Assembly: GCA_038064895.1 (NCBI GenBank)
Contig: JBBTSA010000002.1
Coordinates: 8,942 to 72,941, forward strand
Length of the DNA stretch: 64,000 nt
Reading direction: 5' to 3'
Source of the DNA: Patescibacteria group bacterium
GTDB taxonomy: Bacteria > Patescibacteriota > Microgenomatia > Daviesbacterales > UBA10151
The stretch's first letter is position 1; the number at the start of each line of letters is the position of its first letter. This document shows positions 43,675 through 57,743 of this stretch, piece after piece. The position numbers and the translations under genes were made by a program. A model generated the notes under the pieces. That model made no database searches and had not been told where the DNA came from. It saw nothing but the letters and a program-made list of their open reading frames with translations.

Positions 43675-46017
43675 ATGAAAAAACTGCTTTTCTTATTTCT
43701 ACTTATGGTATTCCCCTTTTTGATGAGTCCGTCTTTCGCATATGGGCAAAGGCAAGAAGTTGACTGTACTATTGCGCAGTCAGCAGTAGGTACTGTTTCG
43801 GACTTATACCAGTGTTCAGGCGGTATTGCCTGCTATAACGACTTCGATTTTATTGTAGAAGGCAACAAATGTTTTAAAGAACCACGGCAAGGAGACTTTG
43901 ATGGTGGACGTTACCATTGTGATACCCAAGCTGATGCTCCTTTTATTGATCCAAGGAATGGTTCTAGAACTACAGTAGGTGCAATTTGCACAGGTGCAGG
44001 GCTTAATTTATCAGCTTCAAGTAAAGCTCTTGAGAATTGCCACATTGAGTACGATAAAGAAAAACAGGAAGGCACGTTTTTTGCAAAGGCCAGTTCTTTT
44101 AGTGGTCCGGTAATCTTTGAACGATTCGAAACACTACCAAACGGACAGGAGGTTGAAATTGCAAAAGATCTTGCAAAATTGAGTTTTACAAATAATGAAT
44201 TGCGTCGCTCCTTCAACCCAGCCCCTGATATCCTCAGAACAAGAGTGGTACTCTATCCTGTGGAAACCAATACTGCTCCGGATGCTGAGCTTTGTACAGC
44301 AAAACATGAGTTTGTTGTGGATAATAGTACTCAAGCAGAAGGTCCTTCTGAACCCGAACCAGCTGCTCCAAGACCTGTTGTTGCCCTACCTTCTGTTATT
44401 GAAATGGTAATTGATAGGTTGGATACTCAAGGAGCTGATAAAGTTGAGGAAAGGGTGGTAGAAGGATTTGAATATAGAGGTGGTGAAGAAGTAAATATCA
44501 CTGCATTTTTGTATGGCAAAGCAGATGAAGCAAAAATTTATGCAGACCCCGCAAAATTAGCTGCAGGCAGATGTATACCAACAGATACTTCTTTAATCTG
44601 GAAGCTTGATGGAAAAGAAATTACAAATGACCAGGTAGTTAGTAATGAATTTGGAGGCAAATCAGTCCTAAAACAAGCCTGTCAACACTTTATTCTAAAA
44701 ATGCCTACAGAATCGGGAGCTCACAACCTATCTGTTGCTCTACCCAATGATGAAAATTATTTGAAAGCTGCAGAACACATACACAGATTCCGAATTAAAG
44801 CTCCTGAACAAACCAGGTCAACAGTGGAGGTTACAGGCTCACCTAATGTATCATCCAGTAGTGTACGGGGTGTAGCCACTTCTTCTGCCAAGCTTAAGAA
44901 AAACAGCATTAAACGTTTGTCTCTTTCAAAAATACTTGAAAAAGATGTAGCAGGAGTTTCTGTTGAGAATTTAGGGGAAAACAGATACTCTGTTCAATCC
45001 ACACCAGTTGGAGATAATTTAATTTATGTTAATCCCTGTACTACTTCTTTAGAATCATCTGATAAGCCTGACTTTACCTTTTTAACACTAAGAAAAGTTG
45101 ATGAGGATAGATCTTCTGAAATTTTGCCCCAGAGCGGAAAAGTTGATAATTGTGAGATACAACCAATAGATTTAGGAGATATTGATGATATGAAGTATCT
45201 GGCAATTGATGTTCACTTTGATCCAGAAGGCTCTTACGAATTTGCTCCATCCAAATCAGAAGATGTAATTATTTATACAGAAGATGAAGAACTTAATTTA
45301 GCAAATGAACCGCTCTTTGTTAAGTTAAAAACAGATCCGGAAATTATTGGTGCTGATGATCGTGAAGTTGAAATCATTGCAATCAGTAACAGACCAATTG
45401 ATGACCCTACTTTTTATGTTAATAGTGGGGGTAGATCTGCAGAATATATTGATTCTGATTGCACAGAAGGAGGAAATTGCGAATACCATATAACTGTTAT
45501 TACTGAATCTAATACAAACTATAATATTGAATTTGCATCTAAATCAATTAGATTCTCAACCGGAGAACTAGAAATTCCAGATGAATCTCAGCCAGAAGAA
45601 CCCCAATCTGGGGAACGTAACGTAACTAATGTTTCAGTATTTATCAATGGTGATGAAATACCCATTTCTGATCCTAACATTACTGTTCAAAGCCCTGGAA
45701 CAGTTCTTATTAGGGTTACCTTTAGTGATGGAGATACGGAATCCATACTTTTGAATCTACAAAGAGGTTCAGGGGAACCAGGGCCTACAGAAGAACCTGG
45801 ACCCACAGAAGAACCCCAGCCTACGGATGAACCACAACCTACAGAGGAACCTTCCCCTACACCATTTCCAACAACTCAATGCCCTGCAGATTGTAATGCT
45901 TATGGAGATGAATGCTGGAGAGGACCAGTAGGGAAAGTTGATGATGAGTGTCCAGAAGATTATACTGATCTTGATGATCCTGGTACAGGATGCTGGGGAA
46001 GATGTGAAGTATTATGA
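43675..46017 (+). CDS. Large secreted protein (780 aa) with Pro/Glu/Thr linker and Cys-rich C-terminal module
   Basis: Signal peptide MKKLLFLFLLMVFPFLMSPSFAYGQ. EPGPTEEPGPTEEPQPTDEPQPTEEPSPTP linker. C-terminal CPADCNAYGDECWRGPVGKVDDECPEDYTDLDDPGTGCWGRCEVL. Confidence 0.55.
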   Translation: MKKLLFLFLLMVFPFLMSPSFAYGQRQEVDCTIAQSAVGTVSDLYQCSGGIACYNDFDFIVEGNKCFKEPRQGDFDGGRYHCDTQADAPFIDPRNGSRTTVGAICTGAGLNLSASSKALENCHIEYDKEKQEGTFFAKASSFSGPVIFERFETLPNGQEVEIAKDLAKLSFTNNELRRSFNPAPDILRTRVVLYPVETNTAPDAELCTAKHEFVVDNSTQAEGPSEPEPAAPRPVVALPSVIEMVIDRLDTQGADKVEERVVEGFEYRGGEEVNITAFLYGKADEAKIYADPAKLAAGRCIPTDTSLIWKLDGKEITNDQVVSNEFGGKSVLKQACQHFILKMPTESGAHNLSVALPNDENYLKAAEHIHRFRIKAPEQTRSTVEVTGSPNVSSSSVRGVATSSAKLKKNSIKRLSLSKILEKDVAGVSVENLGENRYSVQSTPVGDNLIYVNPCTTSLESSDKPDFTFLTLRKVDEDRSSEILPQSGKVDNCEIQPIDLGDIDDMKYLAIDVHFDPEGSYEFAPSKSEDVIIYTEDEELNLANEPLFVKLKTDPEIIGADDREVEIIAISNRPIDDPTFYVNSGGRSAEYIDSDCTEGGNCEYHITVITESNTNYNIEFASKSIRFSTGELEIPDESQPEEPQSGERNVTNVSVFINGDEIPISDPNITVQSPGTVLIRVTFSDGDTESILLNLQRGSGEPGPTEEPGPTEEPQPTDEPQPTEEPSPTPFPTTQCPADCNAYGDECWRGPVGKVDDECPEDYTDLDDPGTGCWGRCEVL

Positions 46018-46256
46018 ATATAGCAGGTTATCAAATTAGCAAAATACAAGCTTTTACAATAGGATTTTTACTAGTAGGCATTATTATCGGAGTCTTTTTA
46101 GTACAAAGACAACAAACTTTAAAAAGTAAAGCCAGTGAAGAGCTCTACAATAAAATTAATGTCCGGGATGCAGAGTGTTTTGGTGAAGGTAGCTCTTATA
46201 CCTGCCGGACTCAATCTGATCAAGTTGAAATAGATATAAGCAATCTACTCCCTTAA
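46014..46256 (+). CDS. Small single-pass membrane protein with conserved LVQ(R/K)xQ juxtamembrane motif and Cys pair (paralogue of 50651-50923)
   Basis: 80 aa. ISKIQAFTIGFLLVGIIIGVFLVQRQQTLKSKA is ~60% identical to ISKKQAIITLILLLGIVFGVILVQKPQIFKGRA of the other copy. ATGA overlap with the preceding giant gene. Confidence 0.55.
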   Translation: MNIAGYQISKIQAFTIGFLLVGIIIGVFLVQRQQTLKSKASEELYNKINVRDAECFGEGSSYTCRTQSDQVEIDISNLLP

Positions 46257-46327: not shown

Positions 46328-46960
46328 TTAGATCTTAAATTTAACCTTTGCTAGCTTTATAGTCTGCTCTTGAAAGAATTTTTTAACCTCATCCCAGGAA
46401 ACAGAAATTAACATTTTGGGAGGTTCCTGAGAATCTGCATCTGCAAAGTAATCCAGACTCCTCATAATATGGACAATATTGTTGGAAAGTTTACCGTATT
46501 TTTGTTCATAAAACTTTAAAATTTGTTCCAGGGAAAATTTTTTAACCAAAAAATAAAGGTCAATAAAATCTCTTTTTGTGCCTCGGCTTGAGATAGCATC
46601 AATTTTCATAGCAGCAATATCTTCCAGAGATGCCAGATTAATCTTAGAAAAGACAGATGTTTTTTTAATTAGTGGATATCTGTAATAAAAATAGCTGAAC
46701 TTAACTTTTGGGAAACTACCCAAAATAGTCCATTTTGCTGTTTCATCTAATTTAAATCCAGGTAACTTTTCGAGCTGTTCTAAAACATCTTCTGTATTGA
46801 ATTCAATGTTCGTAAAAAAATCAAGGTCTAAAGATATGCGGTGTCCAATCTGAAGCGCGCAAGATGTGCCTCCGGCAAGGTATGTATCTTTAAGAATCCC
46901 TGACTCTCCTAATAAGGCCAAAGCTCCTGCCGCATTTTTAGATAAGGTTTTTGTAAACAT
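46328..46960 (-). CDS. Nucleotidyltransferase AbiEii/AbiGii-family toxin (type IV TA / abortive infection)
   Basis: 210 aa. YLAGGTSCALQIGHRISLDLDFF matches the AbiEii GGTAL...R.S.DLDF signature. Confidence 0.7.
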   Translation of the reverse strand: MFTKTLSKNAAGALALLGESGILKDTYLAGGTSCALQIGHRISLDLDFFTNIEFNTEDVLEQLEKLPGFKLDETAKWTILGSFPKVKFSYFYYRYPLIKKTSVFSKINLASLEDIAAMKIDAISSRGTKRDFIDLYFLVKKFSLEQILKFYEQKYGKLSNNIVHIMRSLDYFADADSQEPPKMLISVSWDEVKKFFQEQTIKLAKVKFKI

Positions 46961-47211
46961 ATCACCTTTCTTTTATTAATATCTAAAAGATCCGCCCAGA
47001 AATTGGCAGTTCTGGCAGAAAACCCCCTCCTTTTTGTAACTACCTCTCTAATTAAGTCTCTGCTGTAGGTTTTAAACATCCATCTGATTGCTTTATCATG
47101 CCCCTTATCCAAAAGCCTGTGTATAATGTAAGGCCCACTTTGCTCCTTATCAAGCTCATTAAAATCTACATCCCAAAAGTATTGTTTTAAAAAGGTAGGA
47201 AGCTTTTTCAT
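46909..47211 (-). CDS. Putative partner (antitoxin?) of the AbiEii-like gene
   Basis: 100-aa ORF overlapping the AbiEii gene start by 52 nt. No confident motif. Confidence 0.3.
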   Translation of the reverse strand: MKKLPTFLKQYFWDVDFNELDKEQSGPYIIHRLLDKGHDKAIRWMFKTYSRDLIREVVTKRRGFSARTANFWADLLDINKRKVICLQKPYLKMRQELWPY

Positions 47212-47372
47212 ATAGGTCCTTATACATATATTTTACCATAATTGATACCTAGAAGGTATATTTTTTTCTGTTTATTTCTATAGCCATAACCTTAATATCC
47301 CTAAGCAGAAAACCAGCTTTTTGGGATATCTGTTTATCGGCCTGAATAAACTCAAAGCTATCTAATAGATCT

Positions 47373-47597
47373 TCAATTAATCTCTTCTTCTGTTCTATCC
47401 GACCATATTCCTCTGGTTTCGTCAACTAATTTTTTGATCTTTTCCTTTTTATCTGCTTCATCGCTAATAGGTTGAAGTTTCACTTTTACTTCTCTATCTT
47501 TTTTTATATACACAGGTTCACCAGTAGAAACCACCATATCGACAAGGTTAAAGAAATTGTTTCTTACCTCAGTTGCTGTAATAATATTTTTAGCCAT
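47373..47597 (-). CDS. Phd/YefM-family antitoxin (apparently orphan)
   Basis: 74 aa. ITATEVRNNFFNLVDMVVSTGEPVYIKKDRE is Phd/YefM-like. Downstream lies only a 42-codon start-less remnant (EDLLDSFEFIQADKQISQKAGFLLRDIKVMAIEINRKKYTF). Confidence 0.6.
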   Translation of the reverse strand: MAKNIITATEVRNNFFNLVDMVVSTGEPVYIKKDREVKVKLQPISDEADKKEKIKKLVDETRGIWSDRTEEEIN

Positions 47598-47688: not shown

Positions 47689-48186
47689 GTGAGACAAAAA
47701 CTGCTTATAGTAGGTTACATTACTTTGCTCATCACCATTCCTATTACTTTTTATTTATTTAAAGATCAAATCAGATCTAGCTTTCTTAAACCTAAAGTTT
47801 CAATCCAGCCAAAACTTATTAGAGAAACTACAATCGCTGAGGTTGCAGCAAAGTCCCACCCCAGCCTCTTTTATGCAGATTTGGAATATGATCCGAATAC
47901 AGAAGCAGTAGCGTTAAGAGAAACATCTGTAGGTCGCGGTGACCCTCCATCACTTTTTCCTGATAAACCACCCGATGATAATAATCGTTTATCTTTCAAG
48001 GTGGAAGTTGTGTCAAAGGAAAATATTGTCCTTCAAAGCGGCTGGTATTCTGATTATAAACAAAAAGTAAAGCCAAAAGAGGGTTTGCTTAGATTCTCTG
48101 TGGTAACAGGGTATGAACCCGGAGCTATTGTAAAACTCTATTATCCTAATGAGAGTAAGCTTATCTGGCTTGGGAAAATACAATGA
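47689..48186 (+). CDS. Membrane-anchored hypothetical protein (165 aa), first gene of the second surface-protein cassette
   Basis: N-terminal TM LLIVGYITLLITIPITFYLF. Overlaps the downstream giant gene (ATGA). Confidence 0.45.
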   Translation: MRQKLLIVGYITLLITIPITFYLFKDQIRSSFLKPKVSIQPKLIRETTIAEVAAKSHPSLFYADLEYDPNTEAVALRETSVGRGDPPSLFPDKPPDDNNRLSFKVEVVSKENIVLQSGWYSDYKQKVKPKEGLLRFSVVTGYEPGAIVKLYYPNESKLIWLGKIQ

Positions 48187-50663
48187 TTAAAATTTTAATT
48201 TTTTGTTTTGCATTTCTACTTGCAACTTTTGCGTTTACTGGGTCCATTGCTGCACAACAAACAACTAGGCAATATATTGTAAGACCATATTTAGTAATCC
48301 CTTCTGACTGGAATACACCGGAAACTCTTGAACAAATCCCAACCTTTAAACAAGATATCTTACAAGCTTTAGAAGAAGTACAAACTTGGTATGCAGAAAA
48401 CGCAAATGGTAAAACTTTTAATCTTGATGAAGAAGTTCGGGTTGTTTTCCCTCAAACAGCAGTTGTAGAAAGGCGTTTAGGAAATAGTAATATTGAGGAT
48501 TTAGTGCCTAACGAGGAAAATGGAGTAGTAAACACTAATTGGATTGTAGGTTTATGGTCAGGAAGTGCTTTGGGAACTGGAGCTGGAAACCAACTTTCTT
48601 CCATAGGCAATGCCCGTTTAAGCTTTGATCAATTATTGGATTTGCATAATGTTGAAATTAAGGAAGGAATAAGTTATAGAGAAAATGCTATAAAAATACT
48701 TACCCATGAGTTAGGTCATGCTTTTGGTCTAGTTAATGCAGGATATGCCCTTAGTCATCCTTGCACTCAAATAAGTAAAAACGAATGTAGAGATGGTGCT
48801 CCACAACCCTTACCCCAACCTGAAGAATGGAATGGTAGTGTAATGGGGCAAGCTTTTACGAGCTTTTCCAGAGTGAAATTTAATAACTCAATACACAATC
48901 CTGAATTATGGAAATTATATGGAAGTGCATTTGTTAATCCTCAACGCGAGCCTGCTCCTTCTCCTTTCGGCGCAGCAAAACCGCCATTTCGACCCACTAT
49001 TTTTTATGTTAACCCTCAACCAGTAGAAGTTGGGTCTGTTTTGGAAATACACGGGAACAGTTTTGGTGAAAATAAAGGAGAAGTAAATTTATTCCAACGC
49101 TTTTATTCTACTCGAGAAAATAAAGTAGAACAGATAGTTGAATGGTCAGACCAACTTATCAAGTTTGTGGTAGAAAAACCAGCAGATATGATATGCATTA
49201 TCGTTCCTAGCCCAACCGAACCAAATACAACAATCGGTGAATGCGCAAACATTAAAATAGAAGGGGTACCACTTCCCCCAATCCTTACTATAAATTTATC
49301 AACCACCTGTGGAGAGCCGAAAAGGCCTTTACCTATATTTTCGGATTACAAAAAACTTCTAGGTGTCGAACTTAATAAACTTGAAGATAATGGCCAAGAA
49401 ACTCAAAAAATGAACTGGAGTATAAATGCCACTGCCAAACTACAAGCACTTTTCCTCATTGGGTCAGAATCCCCAGTTGCATTAACAGAAGGAAATCATG
49501 TGCTTAGGGCACCGGTATTGGAAGATGTATCTCCTACGCCGGAGATTGTGCCTATTGAAATAACAGATATCACAAAGTCACAAGAATTGACAGCTAATTT
49601 CCATTATCCAGAGTGTCCTGTGCAACCTAGTCCTACGCCGACTCCTACTTCCACTGCTACCCCTTCAGCTACTCCTATAGGAACCTTTGTTACTGGTTCT
49701 GCCTCATGCACAAAACCTCATAACCATTTAACTAAGGATCACTTTGATGTATCCATTGATATGAATATCCCTCCCCAAAAATCAGACCTAAGCGTCTGGA
49801 CAACGATTACTGATGATCGAAGTGGATCCACAGGACTTCTATCATCTGGTGGGGCCGGAAAAAGTCATACCGAACTTCATGACTCTTTCAGTTCAATAAG
49901 AGGACCAGGCACTACCATGAGTTTTACACCTAATACTAAATATACTGTTAAAGTCTGGGCTGCTCCTTATACTACTGAAAACCCCAAGTTTGATAATCTT
50001 ATTACCCAAACTACATTTATAACTGGTGAGTGCGGAGAACTAGAACAAGTTATTATTTCAAATTATCCTGATTTTAGAGAGAATAATACTCCAATTGATG
50101 AAGGAAGTGAGACAAAAGTTATTGAAAATCCTAGTGAAAATCAGGAAATTAAATGGCAAGATTCAACCTTAAGTGAAGATCAACCAGTATATGTGAGGGA
50201 AGTGTATGAAGACGAAACAGTCAAGGATTATCAGGCTGATTTAGATAATGGAGAAAAAACCCTAGTTGGAAATGTACAAATTGAAGAAGTTGAGCAGCCT
50301 GTACAAGAGAAAAGGGTTACAAAAATATCTATAGAAGATTCTGTTATCTGGTCAAAAGAAGAAGGAAGCTTTCCTGTTAACTTAAATTTAAATGACCAGC
50401 AGGTTTACACTATCTGGGTATATTATTCAGATGATACATCAAAACCTTTCAGTTTAACTTTTCAAAAATCTGTCCAGGAAGAACCGTCTACCCAAGAGCC
50501 CGAATCCACAGATTGTCTTACTTCATGCGGGATAGAAAACGGCCTTAACTGTACTGACCAGGAAAAAGCAGATAAAGAGTGTGCAGATTCCTGGGAGGAT
50601 GATTCTACCTGCAGTTTTACTGATTATGGTCCACCCGAGAGAGGAGACGGATGTATACCATGA
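48183..50663 (+). CDS. Large secreted protein (826 aa) with HEXXH zinc-metalloprotease-like motif, Ig-like/IPT-like domain, Thr/Pro linker and Cys-rich C-terminal module
   Basis: Signal peptide MIKILIFCFAFLLATFAFTGSIAAQQ. ILTHELGHAFGL (HEXXH). TIFYVNPQPVEVGSVLEIHGNSFG (IPT-like, tentative). PSPTPTPTSTATPSATP. C-terminal CLTSCGIENGLNCTDQEKADKECADSWEDDSTCSFTDYGPPERGDGCIP. Confidence 0.6.
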   Translation: MIKILIFCFAFLLATFAFTGSIAAQQTTRQYIVRPYLVIPSDWNTPETLEQIPTFKQDILQALEEVQTWYAENANGKTFNLDEEVRVVFPQTAVVERRLGNSNIEDLVPNEENGVVNTNWIVGLWSGSALGTGAGNQLSSIGNARLSFDQLLDLHNVEIKEGISYRENAIKILTHELGHAFGLVNAGYALSHPCTQISKNECRDGAPQPLPQPEEWNGSVMGQAFTSFSRVKFNNSIHNPELWKLYGSAFVNPQREPAPSPFGAAKPPFRPTIFYVNPQPVEVGSVLEIHGNSFGENKGEVNLFQRFYSTRENKVEQIVEWSDQLIKFVVEKPADMICIIVPSPTEPNTTIGECANIKIEGVPLPPILTINLSTTCGEPKRPLPIFSDYKKLLGVELNKLEDNGQETQKMNWSINATAKLQALFLIGSESPVALTEGNHVLRAPVLEDVSPTPEIVPIEITDITKSQELTANFHYPECPVQPSPTPTPTSTATPSATPIGTFVTGSASCTKPHNHLTKDHFDVSIDMNIPPQKSDLSVWTTITDDRSGSTGLLSSGGAGKSHTELHDSFSSIRGPGTTMSFTPNTKYTVKVWAAPYTTENPKFDNLITQTTFITGECGELEQVIISNYPDFRENNTPIDEGSETKVIENPSENQEIKWQDSTLSEDQPVYVREVYEDETVKDYQADLDNGEKTLVGNVQIEEVEQPVQEKRVTKISIEDSVIWSKEEGSFPVNLNLNDQQVYTIWVYYSDDTSKPFSLTFQKSVQEEPSTQEPESTDCLTSCGIENGLNCTDQEKADKECADSWEDDSTCSFTDYGPPERGDGCIP

Positions 50664-50923
50664 AAGAATATATTAAAAATTTAAGGATCAGCAAAAAACA
50701 AGCTATTATTACTTTGATTCTGCTTTTGGGTATTGTCTTTGGTGTGATTTTAGTGCAAAAACCCCAGATTTTTAAAGGAAGGGCAGATGTTGATATATCT
50801 TCTGCTCTAAATATCCAAGGAACAGGTGGTGAGGCGGTTAAGTGTGTACAACAGACCTGTACTACCAAAGCAGAAGAAGTAACTATTGAAGTCAAAGATC
50901 CTGATATATTCCTTAAGGATTAA
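50651..50923 (+). CDS. Small single-pass membrane protein, paralogue of 46014-46256
   Basis: 90 aa. ...GIVFGVILVQKPQIFKGRADV then a Cys pair (KCVQQTC). Overlaps the end of the giant gene by 13 nt. Confidence 0.55.
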   Translation: MYTMKEYIKNLRISKKQAIITLILLLGIVFGVILVQKPQIFKGRADVDISSALNIQGTGGEAVKCVQQTCTTKAEEVTIEVKDPDIFLKD

Positions 50924-50985: not shown

Positions 50986-51046
50986 GGCAAGGTTCTGACA
51001 ACTGAGCAGTAGAATCTCTAATACTGCGAAGGTGTCATGGTCCTTA
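50986..51046. other. Conserved ~60-nt element (copy B), homologous to 520-579. Overlaps the 3' end of a PIN gene.
   Basis: ggcaaggttctgacaactgagcagtagaatctctaatactgcgaaggtgtcatggtcctta. Preceded by the perfect hairpin ttcgccataggcgaa. Confidence 0.35.
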
Positions 51047-51398
51047 TATCCTTCATTGGAAAATCGGAAGTGTTGTTTGTGACAAGGGTCAAATGGTTAA
51101 GTTTTGCCTGGGCAGCAAGGAAATAGTCTAAAAGCTGTGTTCTTTTGGTTCTCAAAAACTTTTTTCTATATGCTGCTGCTAGTTTAGCAGTGTCAAGGTC
51201 TATAGGCAAAATTGGAAAGCTATCTATTAACTTTTGGAATTGTTTCTCTTCCTTTTCTGTGGCTTGAGACAAAAATTCGCCGACAACTACTACAGATAAA
51301 TAAAGCTCCTTCTCTGCTACTGCTTTTTTAAAAAAGCTTTGACTCGGTTCTTCTCCTATTAATGCTCTAATAATAACATTGGTATCTAAAAGATACAT
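51018..51398 (-). CDS. PIN-domain toxin (VapC)
   Basis: 126 aa. MYLLDTNVIIRAL N-terminus, ...TLVTNNTSDF C-terminal motif. 1-nt-adjacent to the upstream RHH gene. Confidence 0.7.
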   Translation of the reverse strand: MYLLDTNVIIRALIGEEPSQSFFKKAVAEKELYLSVVVVGEFLSQATEKEEKQFQKLIDSFPILPIDLDTAKLAAAYRKKFLRTKRTQLLDYFLAAQAKLNHLTLVTNNTSDFPMKDIRTMTPSQY

Positions 51399-51668
51399 CT
51401 AAAGAATTTTCCTGTCGCGCCTTATTTCCCTTTGCCACTTATTAATATCTACTCCTGCCCAGCCACTTTCCTTAGGGTCTATTGAGCCGCCAAGCTCATC
51501 GGCTAATTTTTTAAGCTCTTCTTTTTCTTTTCTCTCCTCCTCTAGTCTTTTTCTAGCAGCTTTTCTTAAATACTCAGCAAGGGATTCACCACTGGAAGCT
51601 CTTTGACGGTCTATTTCAGCTCTTAAATCTTTTGGTAAATAAATTTGAGTTCTTATAGCTTGATGCAT
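51399..51668 (-). CDS. RHH-type antitoxin (VapB-like)
   Basis: 89 aa. TQIYLPKDLRAEIDRQRASSGESLAEYLRKAARKRLEE (beta-strand plus two helices), charged C-terminal tail. Confidence 0.6.
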   Translation of the reverse strand: MHQAIRTQIYLPKDLRAEIDRQRASSGESLAEYLRKAARKRLEEERKEKEELKKLADELGGSIDPKESGWAGVDINKWQREIRRDRKIL

Positions 51669-51774: not shown

Positions 51775-52164
51775 TCAAGATAGCACCACCCAGCCTCTTA
51801 GGTCTTTTTTTGGAATCTTTATAGGAGTGGTTAAAAATTGGTCAACTTCCCCTATAAAGATTAAAGTGCCATATTTTGCATTAGATTTAGCTTCCCAATA
51901 CTCTTTACTTTGGGCAATTCTCTTTCCATATCTTTTTCTTAAGTCATTCATATCAACCTCCTCAAGCCCATCATAAAAGACTACCTTTTTTACAAGAAAT
52001 TGACCAACAGGATCCTGACCAGATGGTTTTATATAAACCAAATCCCCGGAAGAAATTTGACCAAAAGGAGGATCTTTCCTTCTTGAAAACCTGCTTTCTA
52101 TGGTCTTTTGACCGGTAAGTATCTTCTCTCCCCCATCCCCCTTAAAAATAGCCAGGTGTTTCAT
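51775..52164 (-). CDS. ASCH (PUA-like) domain protein
   Basis: 129 aa. MKHLAIFKG...EKILTGQKTIESRF N-terminus resembles the ASCH beta-barrel start. Tentative. Confidence 0.45.
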   Translation of the reverse strand: MKHLAIFKGDGGEKILTGQKTIESRFSRRKDPPFGQISSGDLVYIKPSGQDPVGQFLVKKVVFYDGLEEVDMNDLRKRYGKRIAQSKEYWEAKSNAKYGTLIFIGEVDQFLTTPIKIPKKDLRGWVVLS

Positions 52165-55888: not shown

Positions 55889-56923
55889 CTAATTCCCTTT
55901 TCTTAAAGCCTTTTTGAGAATTAACCCCAGATCTATTTTTAGGAAGAACGCTGAAACTATTCCAAAAATTAATATAAAAACGGCTGAAAGGATATGAAAA
56001 AGTACAGTCATGGCTGAAGCTAAATTAGCTCCTATTCCAAATACTCCTGATAGAATCAGCAGACCGGAAGCCTCTGCAGATCCTACATATCCCGGTGCAG
56101 CAGGAATAAGATAAGTTAGTGCGGATAAAAGCTGGCCTAAGTACATTTTTAAAAAGTTTTGAGGAAATCCCAAAGCTATAAAAGTAAAATACCAGATATA
56201 AGCATCCGCAATGTATCCTAAAACTGTAAATAAAGAAAGCAAAAATAAATCCCTGGGATGCCTTTTAAGTATACTAAAGGATTCTAAAATGAAAATACTA
56301 AATCTATCAAAATATATCTTAATATCATTAAATATTAATAGATGCTTCAAAAAACCGATCATTTTTCTCGTAAAAGTTATCTGAAATATAGCAAAATAGG
56401 TTAAAACTAAAGCTGTTGCAAATATAATTGTTATGAAAATTATAATATTTATATCCAAGGCTGTTGGAATAAGCAGTAAAAGTACTGCTGCTAAAAGTAA
56501 GACTACTAAAAAATCAACAAATCTGTCCAAAAAAACCCAGATAACTGACTTTGCAAGAGGTAGGCCAAAACGGGTATTTAAATAAATACCTTTTGCTATT
56601 TCTCCTGCCCTGATTGGAATATAAAAGTTTAGCATCATTGCCACTCCATTTAGAAATATTAGATCCTTAAGAGCAATATCTTTAATATTTTTTAAAAAAA
56701 TTTTTAACCGAATCGCCCGAATTACAGGTGACGCTAACATAAACAGGAAGACTGGTATCAAATTTAAAAATTTAAGATTTGAAAGGGTTGAAAAAATTTC
56801 TTCCAAATCAACAAACTGAAACCAAATTAGGATTAAAATCAAGCCTATTGCACTGTTTATAAAAATCCCTCTTAATGTTTTCATTGAAAATATGGCATCT
56901 ATTAATATACACTTAATATACAC
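55889..56923 (-). CDS. Polytopic membrane protein, flippase-like / UPF0104 (LPG-synthase TM domain) family (tentative)
   Basis: 344 aa, ~8 TM helices. RAIRLKIFL and IPIRAGEIAKG motifs reminiscent of PF03706. Confidence 0.45.
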   Translation of the reverse strand: MYIKCILIDAIFSMKTLRGIFINSAIGLILILIWFQFVDLEEIFSTLSNLKFLNLIPVFLFMLASPVIRAIRLKIFLKNIKDIALKDLIFLNGVAMMLNFYIPIRAGEIAKGIYLNTRFGLPLAKSVIWVFLDRFVDFLVVLLLAAVLLLLIPTALDINIIIFITIIFATALVLTYFAIFQITFTRKMIGFLKHLLIFNDIKIYFDRFSIFILESFSILKRHPRDLFLLSLFTVLGYIADAYIWYFTFIALGFPQNFLKMYLGQLLSALTYLIPAAPGYVGSAEASGLLILSGVFGIGANLASAMTVLFHILSAVFILIFGIVSAFFLKIDLGLILKKALRKGN

Positions 56924-56930
56924 TATTTAT

Positions 56931-57743
56931 ATGTTTTCATCTTTGAGAATGCGAATTATTTTGGGAATATATATATTTATCATTATCTCCATTCCAATTG
57001 GGGCATACCTTGCATCAGAGCAAACTATCTTCAAAGGCAAAGCCCAGGAGAAAAAAACTATAACAAAACCCCCTTCCAGTCCTAAAGCATCGCCCGCAAA
57101 GAATTTAAATGATCTTTCGGAAGGTACAGAAGATAAAGAAAGCATAGCTACCTCTTTTGGCCCAACGCTAAGTTTAAAAGTAGCCCTTGAAGGAAGACCC
57201 AAGGATAAACAGTCAGGCAAATTATTTGTTGGTATCATAGAGGGTTTGGTAAGTTTGAACCCAAAATTCTTACTTAGCTTCACTATAGATGTTCCTGCAG
57301 GAGGAGAATACAGCGGTTTATCCCTGGCAGGATTAACCCCGGGGACACGCTATTCTGCTTTACTTAAGGGTCCTGCGCAAATTGCATCAGCATCAGCATT
57401 TATTATGACCCCGACAGTAAGTAATTTAAATTCGGGCGATACTATAGCTTTGCTAACTGGCGATTTAAATGAGGATAACACAATAAATTCCCAGGACTAT
57501 TCCATTGCCCAAAAAGCGCAAGGCTCGACTTCTAAATCTTCAAACTGGAATGAAAATGCGGATTTTAATAAGGATGGCACAGTAAATGCATTTGATTTAG
57601 CAATCATTACTAAAAACTTCGGCAAAATTGGGGATTCGGGACCTTGGACTTCTCCTATACCAACAAAAGAAGCTTCAAAGTCGGCAGGCTTAGTTACTCC
57701 CCCAAACTCAGGCGGCTACTGGTTCTGGTTGCCAAGTTTTTAA
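56931..57743 (+). CDS. Secreted/anchored protein with C-terminal dockerin-type Ca-binding repeats
   Basis: N-terminal anchor then ASEQTIFKGKAQE (same QxIFKG[KR]A motif as the small TM proteins). Dockerin-like DLNEDNTINSQD and DFNKDGTVNAFDLAII. Confidence 0.55.
   Translation: MFSSLRMRIILGIYIFIIISIPIGAYLASEQTIFKGKAQEKKTITKPPSSPKASPAKNLNDLSEGTEDKESIATSFGPTLSLKVALEGRPKDKQSGKLFVGIIEGLVSLNPKFLLSFTIDVPAGGEYSGLSLAGLTPGTRYSALLKGPAQIASASAFIMTPTVSNLNSGDTIALLTGDLNEDNTINSQDYSIAQKAQGSTSKSSNWNENADFNKDGTVNAFDLAIITKNFGKIGDSGPWTSPIPTKEASKSAGLVTPPNSGGYWFWLPSF

What the first reader, a model, noticed from the sequence alone, without database searches (positions are those of the whole stretch)
46014..46256. Conserved juxtamembrane motif Q-x-[IL]-[FL]-K-[GS]-[KR]-A after an N-terminal signal-anchor in three otherwise unrelated proteins
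Three proteins carry the same short motif immediately after their N-terminal hydrophobic anchor: 46014-46256 (VFLVQRQQTLKSKASE), 50651-50923 (VILVQKPQIFKGRADV) and the dockerin-containing protein at 56931 (AYLASEQTIFKGKAQE).

Placement right after the membrane anchor suggests a dedicated processing or sorting signal. The analogy is signals recognised by specialised peptidases or sortase-like enzymes, rather than a functional domain. This is not a classic type IV prepilin (G|FTLIE) motif.
Basis: seen in the sequence. Interest (0 to 1): 0.6.

Follow-up and report, generated by a model that had tools for sequence, protein, structure and literature searches.

The report
Conserved export signal of Daviesbacteria proteins
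The short motif is the end of a roughly 40-residue N-terminal membrane-export signal that hundreds of unrelated surface and secreted proteins of the uncultured Daviesbacteria share almost letter for letter, and no curated signal model or searchable paper describes it.

Summary
The literal regex fits only one of the three proteins. The aligned form, [TI][LF]K[SG][KR]A, fits all three (3 observed against 0.03 expected). Two of the three "unrelated" proteins are paralogues.

The motif is the 3' end of a 38-40-residue N-terminal module:
- a basic n-region;
- an 18-residue helix carrying GxxxG;
- then Y-L-V-Q-x-x-Q-I-F-K-[S/P/G]-[K/R]-A.

The window comes from a Candidatus Daviesbacteria (Patescibacteria) MAG. 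An exhaustive profile search found 556 protein clusters with the module. In the 150 listed, it always lies at the N-terminus, on proteins of 49-4375 aa. Carriers include subtilases, M64 peptidases, lyases, glycosidases, CBM and dockerin proteins, and a large family of 70-100-aa mini-proteins.

Conservation stops abruptly after an invariant Ala. Pro is absent at +1 and +2 and common from +3. Ordinary AXA signal peptides coexist in the same genomes. No Pfam or NCBIfam model and no searchable paper covers the module.

The best reading is a lineage-specific, dedicated Sec-type export signal, probably cut at the Ala. A permanent membrane anchor is the main rival. Neither cleavage nor a cognate enzyme has been shown.

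The parts
46014..46133 (+). N-terminal module of the 80-aa mini-protein: n-region MNIAGYQISKIQ, helix AFTIGFLLVGIIIGVFLV (GxxxG), then QRQQTLKSKA. The invariant Ala codon is 46131-46133.
   Evidence: PSSM score 53.6 bits. It is a seed of alignments A3 and A4.
46014..46256 (+). ORF of the 80-aa mini-protein: the module plus a ~40-aa Cys-containing tail. It overlaps the stop of the upstream 780-aa gene by 4 nt.
   Evidence: called gene of 80 aa. Paralogue of the 87-aa protein. Family members P0122-P0127, P0129 onward.
50660..50785 (+). N-terminal module of the 87-aa mini-protein: MKEYIKNLRISKKQ, helix AIITLILLLGIVFGVILV, then QKPQIFKGRA. An alternative start lies at 50651.
   Evidence: PSSM score 51.0 bits. 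The AF2 helix 12-41 ends just before Ala42.
50660..50923 (+). ORF of the 87-aa mini-protein, overlapping the end of the upstream 826-aa gene.
56931..57044 (+). N-terminal module of the dockerin protein: MFSSLRMR, helix IILGIYIFIIISIPIGAYLA, then SEQTIFKGKA. It is followed by a hypervariable P/S/T/K linker.
   Evidence: The module is conserved in about 115 orthologues while the linker is not.
56931..57743 (+). ORF of the 270-aa dockerin type I protein. The longest ORF starts at 56892.
   Evidence: Pfam Dockerin_1, E 6e-12. Gene call of 270 aa. 692 homologues.
47689..47799 (+). Possible degenerate copy of the module at the start of the 165-aa ORF: LLITIPITFYLFKDQIRSSFLKPKV. It ends in Val rather than Ala and has an insertion.
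   Evidence: Seen in sequence. It falls below the PSSM threshold, so confidence is low.
43675..46017 (+). 780-aa secreted protein with an ordinary signal peptide (…FLMSPSFAYG) and a Cys-rich C-terminus. It is the upstream partner of the 80-aa mini-protein.
   Evidence: The same pairing of a large protein with a mini-protein occurs in L011, L024, L043 and L073.
48183..50663 (+). 826-aa secreted protein with an ordinary signal peptide (…FAFTGSIAAQ) and a Cys-rich C-terminus. It is the upstream partner of the 87-aa mini-protein.

Best explanation
The motif is the C-terminal end of a dedicated, lineage-specific N-terminal export signal of Candidatus Daviesbacteria. The signal has the n-h-c layout of a monoderm Sec signal peptide:
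- one to three Lys/Arg in the n-region;
- an 18-residue hydrophobic helix with a GxxxG pair, ending in V-Y-L-V;
- a 10-residue polar/basic c-region, Q-x-x-Q-I-F-K-[S/P/G]-[K/R]-A.

Shown: the signal sits at the N-terminus of dozens of unrelated families of extracytoplasmic proteins, and its conservation ends exactly at the invariant Ala.

Inferred: the helix inserts N-in/C-out through Sec. The juxtamembrane segment then lies at the outer membrane face, where a signal-peptidase-like enzyme cuts at the Ala (…[S/P/G]-[K/R]-A|[S/A/D/T]-[E/S]) and releases the passenger. The residue-specific conservation of the helix and c-region is far beyond what general signal peptidase I needs. It implies recognition by a specific partner: a dedicated peptidase paralogue or a sorting factor.
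For: 1. The module is a discrete entity. A PSSM scan of 1364 ORFs from about 1.14 Mb of Daviesbacteria DNA is bimodal. 63 proteins score 12 bits or more. 59 of these matches start within the first 75 residues; for the other 4 the longest-ORF start appears to lie upstream of the true one. The rest of the proteome lies below 12 bits, nearly all below 0.

2. The exhaustive HMMER search with a 38-column profile gave 556 clusters at E<=1e-3. All 150 listed matches lie within the first ~95 residues of proteins 49-4375 aa long.

3. The logo shows more than 3 bits at many positions: L-21, G-18, G-14, Y-12, L-11 (97%), V-10, Q-9, Q-6, I-5, F-4, K-3, [S67/P27/G6]-2, [K/R]-1 and A0 (100%). Information falls to about 1 bit at +1 and below 0.6 bit from +4. 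In dockerin orthologues it drops in the same way into a hypervariable linker.

4. Pro is found 0/149 times at +1 and 1/149 at +2, against 13% at +3. In the dockerin family the figures are 0/115, 0/115 and 23%. Exclusion of Pro at +1 is the established rule for signal peptidase I substrates.

5. Variant forms keep the small-x-Ala ending: FFSKA, IFLSKA, LFPKPPSQA, LYPKPSSKA.

6. The passengers are typical exoproteins: Peptidase_S8 with an Inhibitor_I9 or fervidolysin N-terminal prodomain, trypsin-like peptidase, M64, heparinase II/III, glycoside hydrolases, CBM60, dockerin, cohesin neighbours, fn3, TIG. The top-150 mature parts fall into 54 BLASTP clusters.

7. Ordinary short signal peptides with AXA-type ends coexist in the same genomes and operons. 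The module is therefore a second class of signal, not merely the lineage's general style.

8. The module DNAs in the window are only 44-62% identical, so selection acts on the protein.
Against: - No cleavage has been observed.
- Pro at -3 relative to the proposed site occurs in 27% of carriers, and Ala, Val and Thr are completely absent there. This violates the canonical (-3,-1) rule. The set S/P/G looks more like a helix-break or turn requirement.
- A 10-residue c-region carrying two to four basic residues is long and unusually charged for a signal peptidase I substrate.
- The dockerin family has a ~50-residue P/S/T/K linker right after the Ala. That linker makes more sense as a wall-spanning stalk of an anchored protein.
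- AF2 models one continuous helix through the motif, at low confidence.
- No S26 peptidase or other candidate enzyme was found near carrier genes.
- Every named carrier is Daviesbacteria. Breadth beyond this lineage is untested.
Confidence: 0.5

Rival explanations
1. The module is an uncleaved signal-anchor. It holds passengers permanently on the cell membrane. The GxxxG helix mediates helix-helix packing, either self-association or docking to a common membrane partner. The segment Q-I-F-K-[SPG]-[KR]-A is an interfacial helix end or turn that fixes the exit geometry. The mini-proteins would be small membrane-tethered subunits that partner the large secreted proteins encoded next to them.
For: - The hydrophobic stretch of 18-21 residues with GxxxG is conserved residue by residue, which is unusual for a disposable signal peptide.
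- The -3 position accepts only the helix breakers S/P/G, never A/V/T.
- A long P/S/T/K stalk follows the module in the dockerin family.
- The mini-proteins would be only ~40 aa if cleaved, and they are consistently paired with large secreted proteins.
- A cohesin protein in L212 has a similar TM plus KSKSA start, as expected of an anchored scaffold.
- AF2 predicts an uninterrupted helix to residue 41.
Against: - An invariant Ala, a basic residue at -2 and exclusion of Pro at +1/+2, followed by an immediate loss of all conservation, fit a scissile site better than a helix cap.
- Several basic residues on the trans side oppose the positive-inside rule for a stable N-in anchor.
- Subtilases with an I9 prodomain usually follow a cleaved signal peptide.
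Confidence: 0.3
2. The module is an ordinary Sec signal peptide with no dedicated machinery. Its similarity across proteins would reflect common descent and shuffling of one N-terminal exon-like module during lineage-specific expansion of secreted-protein genes. Processing would be by the general signal peptidase I.
For: - The n-h-c architecture and the small-x-Ala ending are generic.
- Sub-classes of the n-region track protein families: MFSTFKQR with dockerin proteins, ISKKQ with mini-proteins, NQKG[FI]AH with large enzymes. This indicates vertical inheritance within families.
- No dedicated enzyme was found.
Against: - Column-specific conservation (L-11 at 97%, Q-6 at 90%, K-3 at 90%, A at 100%) persists across 54 or more unrelated mature families and across module DNAs only 44-62% identical. 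That requires purifying selection on individual residues, which a generic signal peptide does not experience.
- Ordinary, non-conserved signal peptides exist side by side with the module.
- Pro at -3 in 27% of carriers is atypical for general signal peptidase I.
Confidence: 0.12
3. The module is a divergent type IV pilin-like (class III) signal. A prepilin peptidase would cut after the Gly of the n-region motif x-Q-K-G|[FI]-A-H. The helix would be retained for assembly into a pilus-like or bindosome-like surface structure.
For: - About 39 of the 150 top carriers have [KRQS]-G-[FIV]-x-[HQ] immediately before the helix.
- One such carrier, P0133, lies 5 bp downstream of a type IV pilin gene.
- From my own knowledge, there is an archaeal precedent: Sulfolobus sugar-binding proteins carry class III signals.
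Against: - The three window proteins and most carriers lack the Gly.
- No carrier has Glu at +5.
- Pfam N_methyl and TIGR02532 give no hit even at E<=10.
- hhalign of the KG-class module against Daviesbacteria pilin N-termini gives probability 0.7%.
- The universally conserved part lies after the helix, not before it.
Confidence: 0.05
4. The match is a chance resemblance in Lys-rich, low-complexity sequence.
For: The core is short, and its literal regex matched only one of the three proteins.
Against: - 3 observed against 0.03 expected.
- A gap-free alignment of 16 N-termini.
- A bimodal PSSM scan.
- 556 clusters at E<=1e-3.
- All four membrane-context hits of the DNA-pattern scan also carry an unrequested V-Y-L at fixed spacing.
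Confidence: 0.01

Closest known systems
YSIRK-G/S signal peptides of Gram-positive surface proteins (TIGR01168)
   Same: Both are lineage-restricted, sequence-conserved variants of the Sec signal peptide. Both are carried by many unrelated surface proteins alongside ordinary signal peptides. Both imply a special secretion or sorting route.
   Different: The YSIRK motif lies in the n/h region and the cleavage region is ordinary. Here the strongest conservation is in the late h-region and the c-region (GxxxG, YLVQ, QIFK[SP][KR]A). No YSIRK motif is present and no NCBIfam model hit was obtained. YSIRK proteins are usually LPXTG sortase substrates. Of the 58 carriers longer than 130 aa, only one (P0229) has an LPxSG-type C-terminus.
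SipW-cognate signal peptides of TasA/TapA-like proteins (TIGR04088) with the dedicated signal peptidase SipW
   Same: Both involve a distinct signal-peptide class with a conserved post-helix motif. In the SipW case it is recognised by a dedicated type I signal peptidase paralogue. This is the closest mechanistic analogy for the best explanation.
   Different: The motif sequence is different. There was no hit to TIGR04088. No SipW-like or any other S26 gene was found in the held loci. The number and diversity of carriers is much larger here.
KxYKxGKxW signal peptide of serine-rich glycoproteins (TIGR03715)
   Same: It is another conserved, long N-terminal signal tied to a specialised export route.
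   Different: Its motif lies in an extended n-region and it is associated with the accessory Sec system. There is no sequence similarity and no model hit.
General signal peptidase I (S26) substrates, following the von Heijne (-3,-1) rule
   Same: The shared features are the n-h-c layout, Ala at -1, a small residue at -3 in 73% of carriers, no Pro at +1, and a total length (~40 aa) like long monoderm signal peptides.
   Different: Pro at -3 occurs in 27% of carriers and Ala/Val/Thr never occur there. The basic residues at -2 and -4 are nearly invariant. The c-region is 10 residues long. The h-region is conserved residue by residue. None of these is a feature of general substrates.
Type IV prepilin / class III signal peptides (PF07963 N_methyl, TIGR02532)
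   Same: Both have a conserved N-terminal hydrophobic helix, and a sub-class here has a K-G-F/I junction.
   Different: In prepilins the processing motif precedes the helix and Glu5 is present. Here the universal motif follows the helix. There were no model hits, and hhalign probability is 0.7%.

Membership tests
Sec-type signal peptide cleaved by signal peptidase I | Positively charged n-region followed by a hydrophobic h-region at the extreme N-terminus | tested here: met
   K/R is enriched at -33 to -29. There are 18 hydrophobic residues from -27 to -10. The invariant Ala has a median position of residue 40. The window proteins fit this layout.
Sec-type signal peptide cleaved by signal peptidase I | Small uncharged residues at -1 and -3, with no Pro from -3 to +1 | tested here: inconclusive
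   Position -1 is Ala in 150/150. Position -3 is Ser 67% and Gly 6%, which fit, but Pro 27% does not. Ala, Val and Thr are absent at -3. Pro is 0/149 at +1.
Sec-type signal peptide cleaved by signal peptidase I | Demonstrated cleavage yielding a mature N-terminus at +1 | not testable with these tools
   This needs N-terminal proteomics or an expression experiment.
Type IV prepilin (class III) signal | G|F-T-L-I-E junction before the helix, and a match to N_methyl / TIGR02532 | tested here: not met
   There is no Gly junction in the three window proteins. Pfam and NCBIfam give no hit at E<=10. hhalign probability is 0.7% against the lineage's pilins.
Bacterial lipoprotein signal (Lgt/Lsp) | Lipobox L-[AS]-[GA]-C with an invariant Cys at +1 | tested here: not met
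   No Cys occurs at or near the boundary. Position +1 is S/A/D/T/Y/N.
Twin-arginine (Tat) signal | S/T-R-R-x-F-L-K motif in the n-region | tested here: not met
   No RR motif appears in the window proteins or in the logo. There was no TIGR01409 hit.
YSIRK, KxYKxGKxW and SipW-cognate signal-peptide classes | A match to the curated NCBIfam/TIGRFAM signal models | tested here: not met
   NCBIfam scans of full proteins at E<=0.1 and of six consensus-like N-termini at E<=10 gave no such hits.
Sortase (LPXTG) substrates | C-terminal LPXTG-like motif, then a hydrophobic helix and a basic tail | tested here: not met
   The window proteins have no such C-terminus. Only 1 of the 58 carriers longer than 130 aa (P0229, LPVSG) has one. 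None was found in the related loci.

The most novel reading that the evidence does not exclude
The module is the recognition tag of a previously unrecognised, dedicated N-terminal protein-sorting system of Daviesbacteria, and possibly of wider Microgenomates. The system would pair the signal with a cognate membrane peptidase or sorting factor not yet identified. It would process and position essentially the whole hydrolase, dockerin-cohesin and mini-protein exoproteome of these ultra-small bacteria. It would be an N-terminal counterpart of the exosortase, archaeosortase and rhombosortase systems.
Probability: 0.3. Interest if true: 0.8.

Novelty: new variant of a known kind. Interest (0 to 1): 0.65.

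Why it matters
Daviesbacteria and other Patescibacteria are uncultured, reduced-genome bacteria thought to live off other cells or polymers. Their surface and secreted proteins are the key to that lifestyle.

A 40-residue signal that marks those proteins gives three things:
- a direct way to enumerate the exoproteome from sequence, including proteins that general predictors may score as membrane anchors;
- a handle for finding the processing or sorting enzyme by phylogenetic profiling, the approach that uncovered the exosortase, rhombosortase and SipW-type systems;
- a testable explanation for the abundant 70-100-aa mini-proteins and for the cohesin-dockerin gene clusters seen here.

If the signal is instead only an unusually conserved ordinary signal peptide, it is still a useful annotation model that Pfam and NCBIfam currently lack.

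Tried and rejected
1. A word-indexed homology search with a 3-sequence N-terminal alignment found only the query itself. With a 16-sequence alignment it found only six mini-proteins. The index and the E-value threshold are too harsh for a 40-residue hydrophobic query. The exhaustive search solved this.

Only four were true module starts (L092, L132, L164, L208). The viral control gave 12 hits and none of that type. This was useful as a background rate only.

3. I searched the held Daviesbacteria loci for a signal peptidase I or SipW homologue, by regex and by phmmer. Nothing was found.

4. A search for LPXTG-type sortase substrates in the same loci found none.

5. The idea that mini-protein plus large neighbour is a split version of the fused proteins was rejected. 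The large parts share no similarity.

6. The pilin-like reading was rejected by the model scans and by hhalign.

7. The AF2 model of the 87-aa protein has mean pLDDT 65 and an unreliable C-terminal domain. No fold search was attempted.

8. Three cluster look-ups meant to widen the taxonomy returned only Daviesbacteria names, in four clusters. Most carriers come from unnamed assemblies.

9. Literature searches found nothing on the motif.
Full report
**Source and setting**

The window is low-GC DNA (about 38% G+C). It matches contig CAYISO010000003.1 of MAG GCA_964366195.1, and a near-identical contig from Hainich groundwater. Homologues of its dockerin protein, and 72 related genomic loci, are almost all labelled Candidatus Daviesbacteria, Microgenomates or Patescibacteria.

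The surrounding genes are housekeeping: topoisomerase I, MreB/MreC, PBP2, PBP1A, def/fmt, SecE-NusG-L11-L1 and a small M50 peptidase. Toxin-antitoxin pairs are also present. No signal peptidase or sortase gene was identified among the window genes examined.

**Checking the observation**

The written consensus matches only the dockerin protein. Column by column the shared core is [TI][LF]K[SG][KR]A, preceded by Gln residues.

The 80-aa (46014-46256) and 87-aa (50660-50923) proteins are paralogues over their full length (33% identity, E 4e-8). Each overlaps the end of a large secreted protein (780 aa and 826 aa) that carries an ordinary signal peptide. "Three otherwise unrelated proteins" is therefore really two families. 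A weak fourth copy may open ORF 47689-48186.

The core occurs 3 times in the window proteome against 0.03 expected, and no shuffle out of 2000 reached 3. The three module DNAs are only 44-62% identical to one another, so the similarity is maintained at the protein level.

**The motif is the end of a larger module**

In about 115 orthologues of the dockerin protein, the N-terminus reads MFSTFKQRLLLGVYIF.LLSIPVGAYL[AV]SQ.QT.KS[KSR]A[SQK]E. It is conserved, whereas the P/S/T/K linker that follows is hypervariable.

In about 1.14 Mb of Daviesbacteria loci the same N-terminus appears on unrelated proteins. Sixteen such N-termini align without a single internal gap except one two-residue insertion.

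A PSSM scan of all 1364 ORFs is cleanly bimodal. Sixty-three proteins score 12 bits or more, all with the match at the N-terminus once over-long ORF calls are allowed for. Everything else lies below that, nearly all below 0. Excluding the dockerin orthologues that anchored the sampling, that is about 15 carriers per Mb.

**Breadth**

An exhaustive HMMER search of 1.84 billion representative proteins used a 38-column profile built from window and homologue N-termini. It returned 556 clusters at E<=1e-3.

Every one of the 150 listed matches lies in the first ~95 residues of its protein. The proteins are 49 to 4375 aa long: 92 are 130 aa or shorter, and 35 are longer than 400 aa.

The mature parts of these 150 fall into 54 BLASTP clusters. 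Pfam finds the following on the larger ones:
- Dockerin_1;
- Peptidase_S8 with Inhibitor_I9 or fervidolysin N-terminal prodomains;
- a trypsin-like peptidase and M64 peptidases;
- heparinase II/III and glycoside hydrolases;
- CBM60, FG-GAP, Kelch, BNR, Hint, fn3 and TIG domains.

One locus, L212, has five or six consecutive genes with the module or variants of it, next to two cohesin genes.

All four carrier clusters that have a source name are Daviesbacteria. Distribution beyond that lineage could not be tested.

**Anatomy**

Positions are numbered with the invariant Ala as 0:
- basic residues around -33 to -29;
- Q/H/S at -28;
- hydrophobic residues from -27 to -10, including L-21, L-20, G-18 (75%) and G-14 (76%), which together form a GxxxG pair;
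- V-13, Y-12 (80%), L-11 (97%), V-10 and Q-9 (81%);
- two variable positions;
- Q-6 (90%), I-5 (86%), F-4 (77%), K-3 (90%);
- S 67% / P 27% / G 6% at -2;
- K/R 97% at -1;
- A 100% at 0.

Information content is above 3 bits at most of these columns. It drops to about 1 bit at +1 and below 0.6 bit from +4. Pro is absent at +1 (0/149) and almost absent at +2 (1/149), but reaches 13% at +3. In the dockerin family the figures are 0/115, 0/115 and 23%.

Variant forms keep the small-x-Ala ending: FFSKA, IFLSKA, LFPKPPS[QH]A and LYPKPSSKA.

**How it most likely works**

Shown: the module is a discrete, selected, N-terminal element. It sits where a signal peptide normally sits, on proteins that are normally exported. 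It coexists with ordinary short signal peptides with AXA-type ends, both in the same operons and in the window's own 780-aa and 826-aa proteins.

Inferred: it is a Sec-type signal whose juxtamembrane end is a processing site. The evidence for this inference:
- The conservation boundary falls exactly after an invariant Ala.
- Pro is excluded just after that Ala.
- The small-x-Ala ending is retained in the variants.
- The residues alternate as F-K-S-K-A. In an extended strand this puts F, S and A on one face and the two basic residues on the other.
- All of these fit a signal-peptidase-type cleavage at …[S/P/G]-[K/R]-A|.

The evidence against canonical signal peptidase I:
- Pro occurs at -3 in 27% of carriers, and Ala, Val and Thr never occur there.
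- The c-region is 10 residues long and basic.
- The helix is conserved residue by residue, including GxxxG.
- Together these point to a specific partner, either a dedicated peptidase or a sorting factor, rather than the general enzyme.

The main rival is that the module is never cut and serves as a membrane anchor. This reading is favoured by the wall-spanning-type linker of the dockerin family, by the tiny size of the mini-proteins if they were cleaved, and by the helix-breaker set S/P/G. I put cleavage at about 0.5, a permanent anchor at about 0.3, and a generic signal peptide conserved only by descent at about 0.12.

A cut after the Lys/Arg (P1 basic, P1' Ala) by a trypsin- or subtilisin-like surface protease is a variant of the processing model that the data cannot separate from a cut after the Ala.

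**Rejected readings**

- Prepilin-like signal. A sub-class of about 39 of 150 carriers has an x-Q-K-G-[FI]-A-H junction before the helix, and one such gene follows a pilin gene. However, the window proteins lack the Gly and there is no Glu5. Pfam N_methyl and TIGR02532 do not hit even at E<=10. hhalign against the lineage's own pilin N-termini gives probability 0.7%.
- Lipobox, Tat, YSIRK, KxYKxGKxW and SipW-cognate models do not match.
- Sortase signals are C-terminal and are absent from nearly all carriers. A sortase gene is nonetheless a conserved neighbour about 7 kb from the dockerin gene in related loci.
- Chance is excluded.

**Comparison with known systems and novelty**

Functionally the module resembles the lineage-specific conserved signal-peptide classes of monoderm bacteria. 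These are YSIRK-G/S, KxYKxGKxW and, most closely in logic, the SipW-cognate signal with its dedicated signal peptidase.

It belongs to none of these families by sequence. It also differs in where the conservation lies (late h-region plus c-region) and in the size and diversity of its clientele.

No Pfam or NCBIfam model covers it. Full-text searches for the lineage plus signal-peptide terms, and for the heptapeptides themselves, found nothing relevant. I therefore rate it a new variant of a known kind. It would count as more than that only if a dedicated enzyme exists.

**Limits**

- No cleavage data exist.
- No partner enzyme has been identified.
- The taxonomic range beyond Daviesbacteria is unknown.
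- The related loci were sampled around one gene family.
- The AF2 model of the mini-protein has low confidence (mean pLDDT 65). It only weakly suggests a helix running to the residue before the Ala.

Noticed in passing
window 43675-46256 and 47689-50923: There are two paralogous cassettes. Each has a large secreted protein (780 aa or 826 aa) with an ordinary signal peptide, followed by an overlapping module-bearing mini-protein of 80-87 aa. The second cassette is also preceded by a 165-aa protein with a degenerate module. The same pairing of a large protein with a mini-protein recurs in L011, L024, L043 and L073.
   Followed up: partly
window 45880-46014 and 50510-50660 (C-termini of the 780- and 826-aa proteins); also P0199, P0203, P0216, P0274: The two window proteins each end in a Cys-rich C-terminal segment of ~45 aa, preceded by a Pro/Glu/Thr-rich linker. 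Several module carriers from other genomes share a conserved Cys-rich C-terminus of their own, for example C.SG..(V/I)CTGHTDD.QC..K.PEEC.N(L/I)V.C.YD...GS.C.CSQ. No Pfam match was found. I did not test whether the window ends and that motif are related. It may be a second, C-terminal sorting or attachment element.
   Followed up: no
window 55889-56923 (-) next to 56931-57743 (+): A divergently transcribed LPG_synthase_TM (PF03706) membrane protein is the immediate upstream neighbour of the dockerin gene. It holds this position in nearly all of the related loci whose ORF lists I inspected (several dozen). The dockerin family also ends in a conserved GYW.W[ILV]P C-terminus.
   Followed up: partly
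L005:16310-18180 and the equivalent positions in L006, L008, L011, L014 and others: A sortase gene (PF04203, E 5e-21) lies next to a conserved protein with a TM start and a 'SEPDAASV…DG' motif that looks PEGA-like (not checked against Pfam). The pair sits ~6-7 kb downstream of the dockerin gene in many Daviesbacteria loci. No LPXTG-type substrate was detected in the same loci.
   Followed up: partly
L212:8973-21485 (GCA_964390595.1): An operon-like run of five or six large proteins carries the module or close variants (VYSTQRQQTIRSRA, IYEVGLQQKLKSGA, VRLAQTQKVFKSQA). It includes CBM60 and dockerin domains and is followed by two cohesin-domain proteins. This is a cellulosome-like system in Daviesbacteria.
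   Followed up: partly
L213/L214:9462-11110: A module carrier of the 'NQKG[FI]xQ/H' sub-class (P0133, 369 aa) starts 5 bp after a type IV pilin gene (N_methyl/T2SSG). About a quarter of the top carriers have this pilin-like G-[FIV] junction before the helix, but none has Glu5.
   Followed up: partly
L040:78-3764; P0163, P0194, P0202, P0221: The ~40-aa domain of the mini-proteins (…YNAF.V….G….C.G..C.T.SL.V.I.V.DL) also occurs fused, right after the module, at the N-terminus of proteins of 157-1245 aa. The downstream parts are not related to the large neighbours of the free mini-proteins.
   Followed up: yes
window 46328-47597 and 51018-51668: Toxin-antitoxin genes sit between the secreted-protein cassettes. 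They are AbiEii with DUF6922, a PhdYeFM-like antitoxin, and a PIN toxin with an 89-aa upstream gene on the same strand that may be its antitoxin.
   Followed up: no
locus titles (for example L009, L010, L014, L016): Many public MAG records titled 'uncultured Gammaproteobacteria bacterium isolate binchicken_…' encode close orthologues of this Daviesbacteria dockerin protein (43-59% identity). Those whose ORFs I listed also have the same flanking genes. Their organism label is evidently wrong.
   Followed up: no
window 51775-52164 (-) and orthologues in L020, L023, L026, L031, L035: A cytoplasmic-looking 129-130-aa protein family starts M(K)KHLAIFKG[KND]A. This accounts for most non-membrane matches to the loose core regex. 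It is a coincidental look-alike with no hydrophobic segment.
   Followed up: yes
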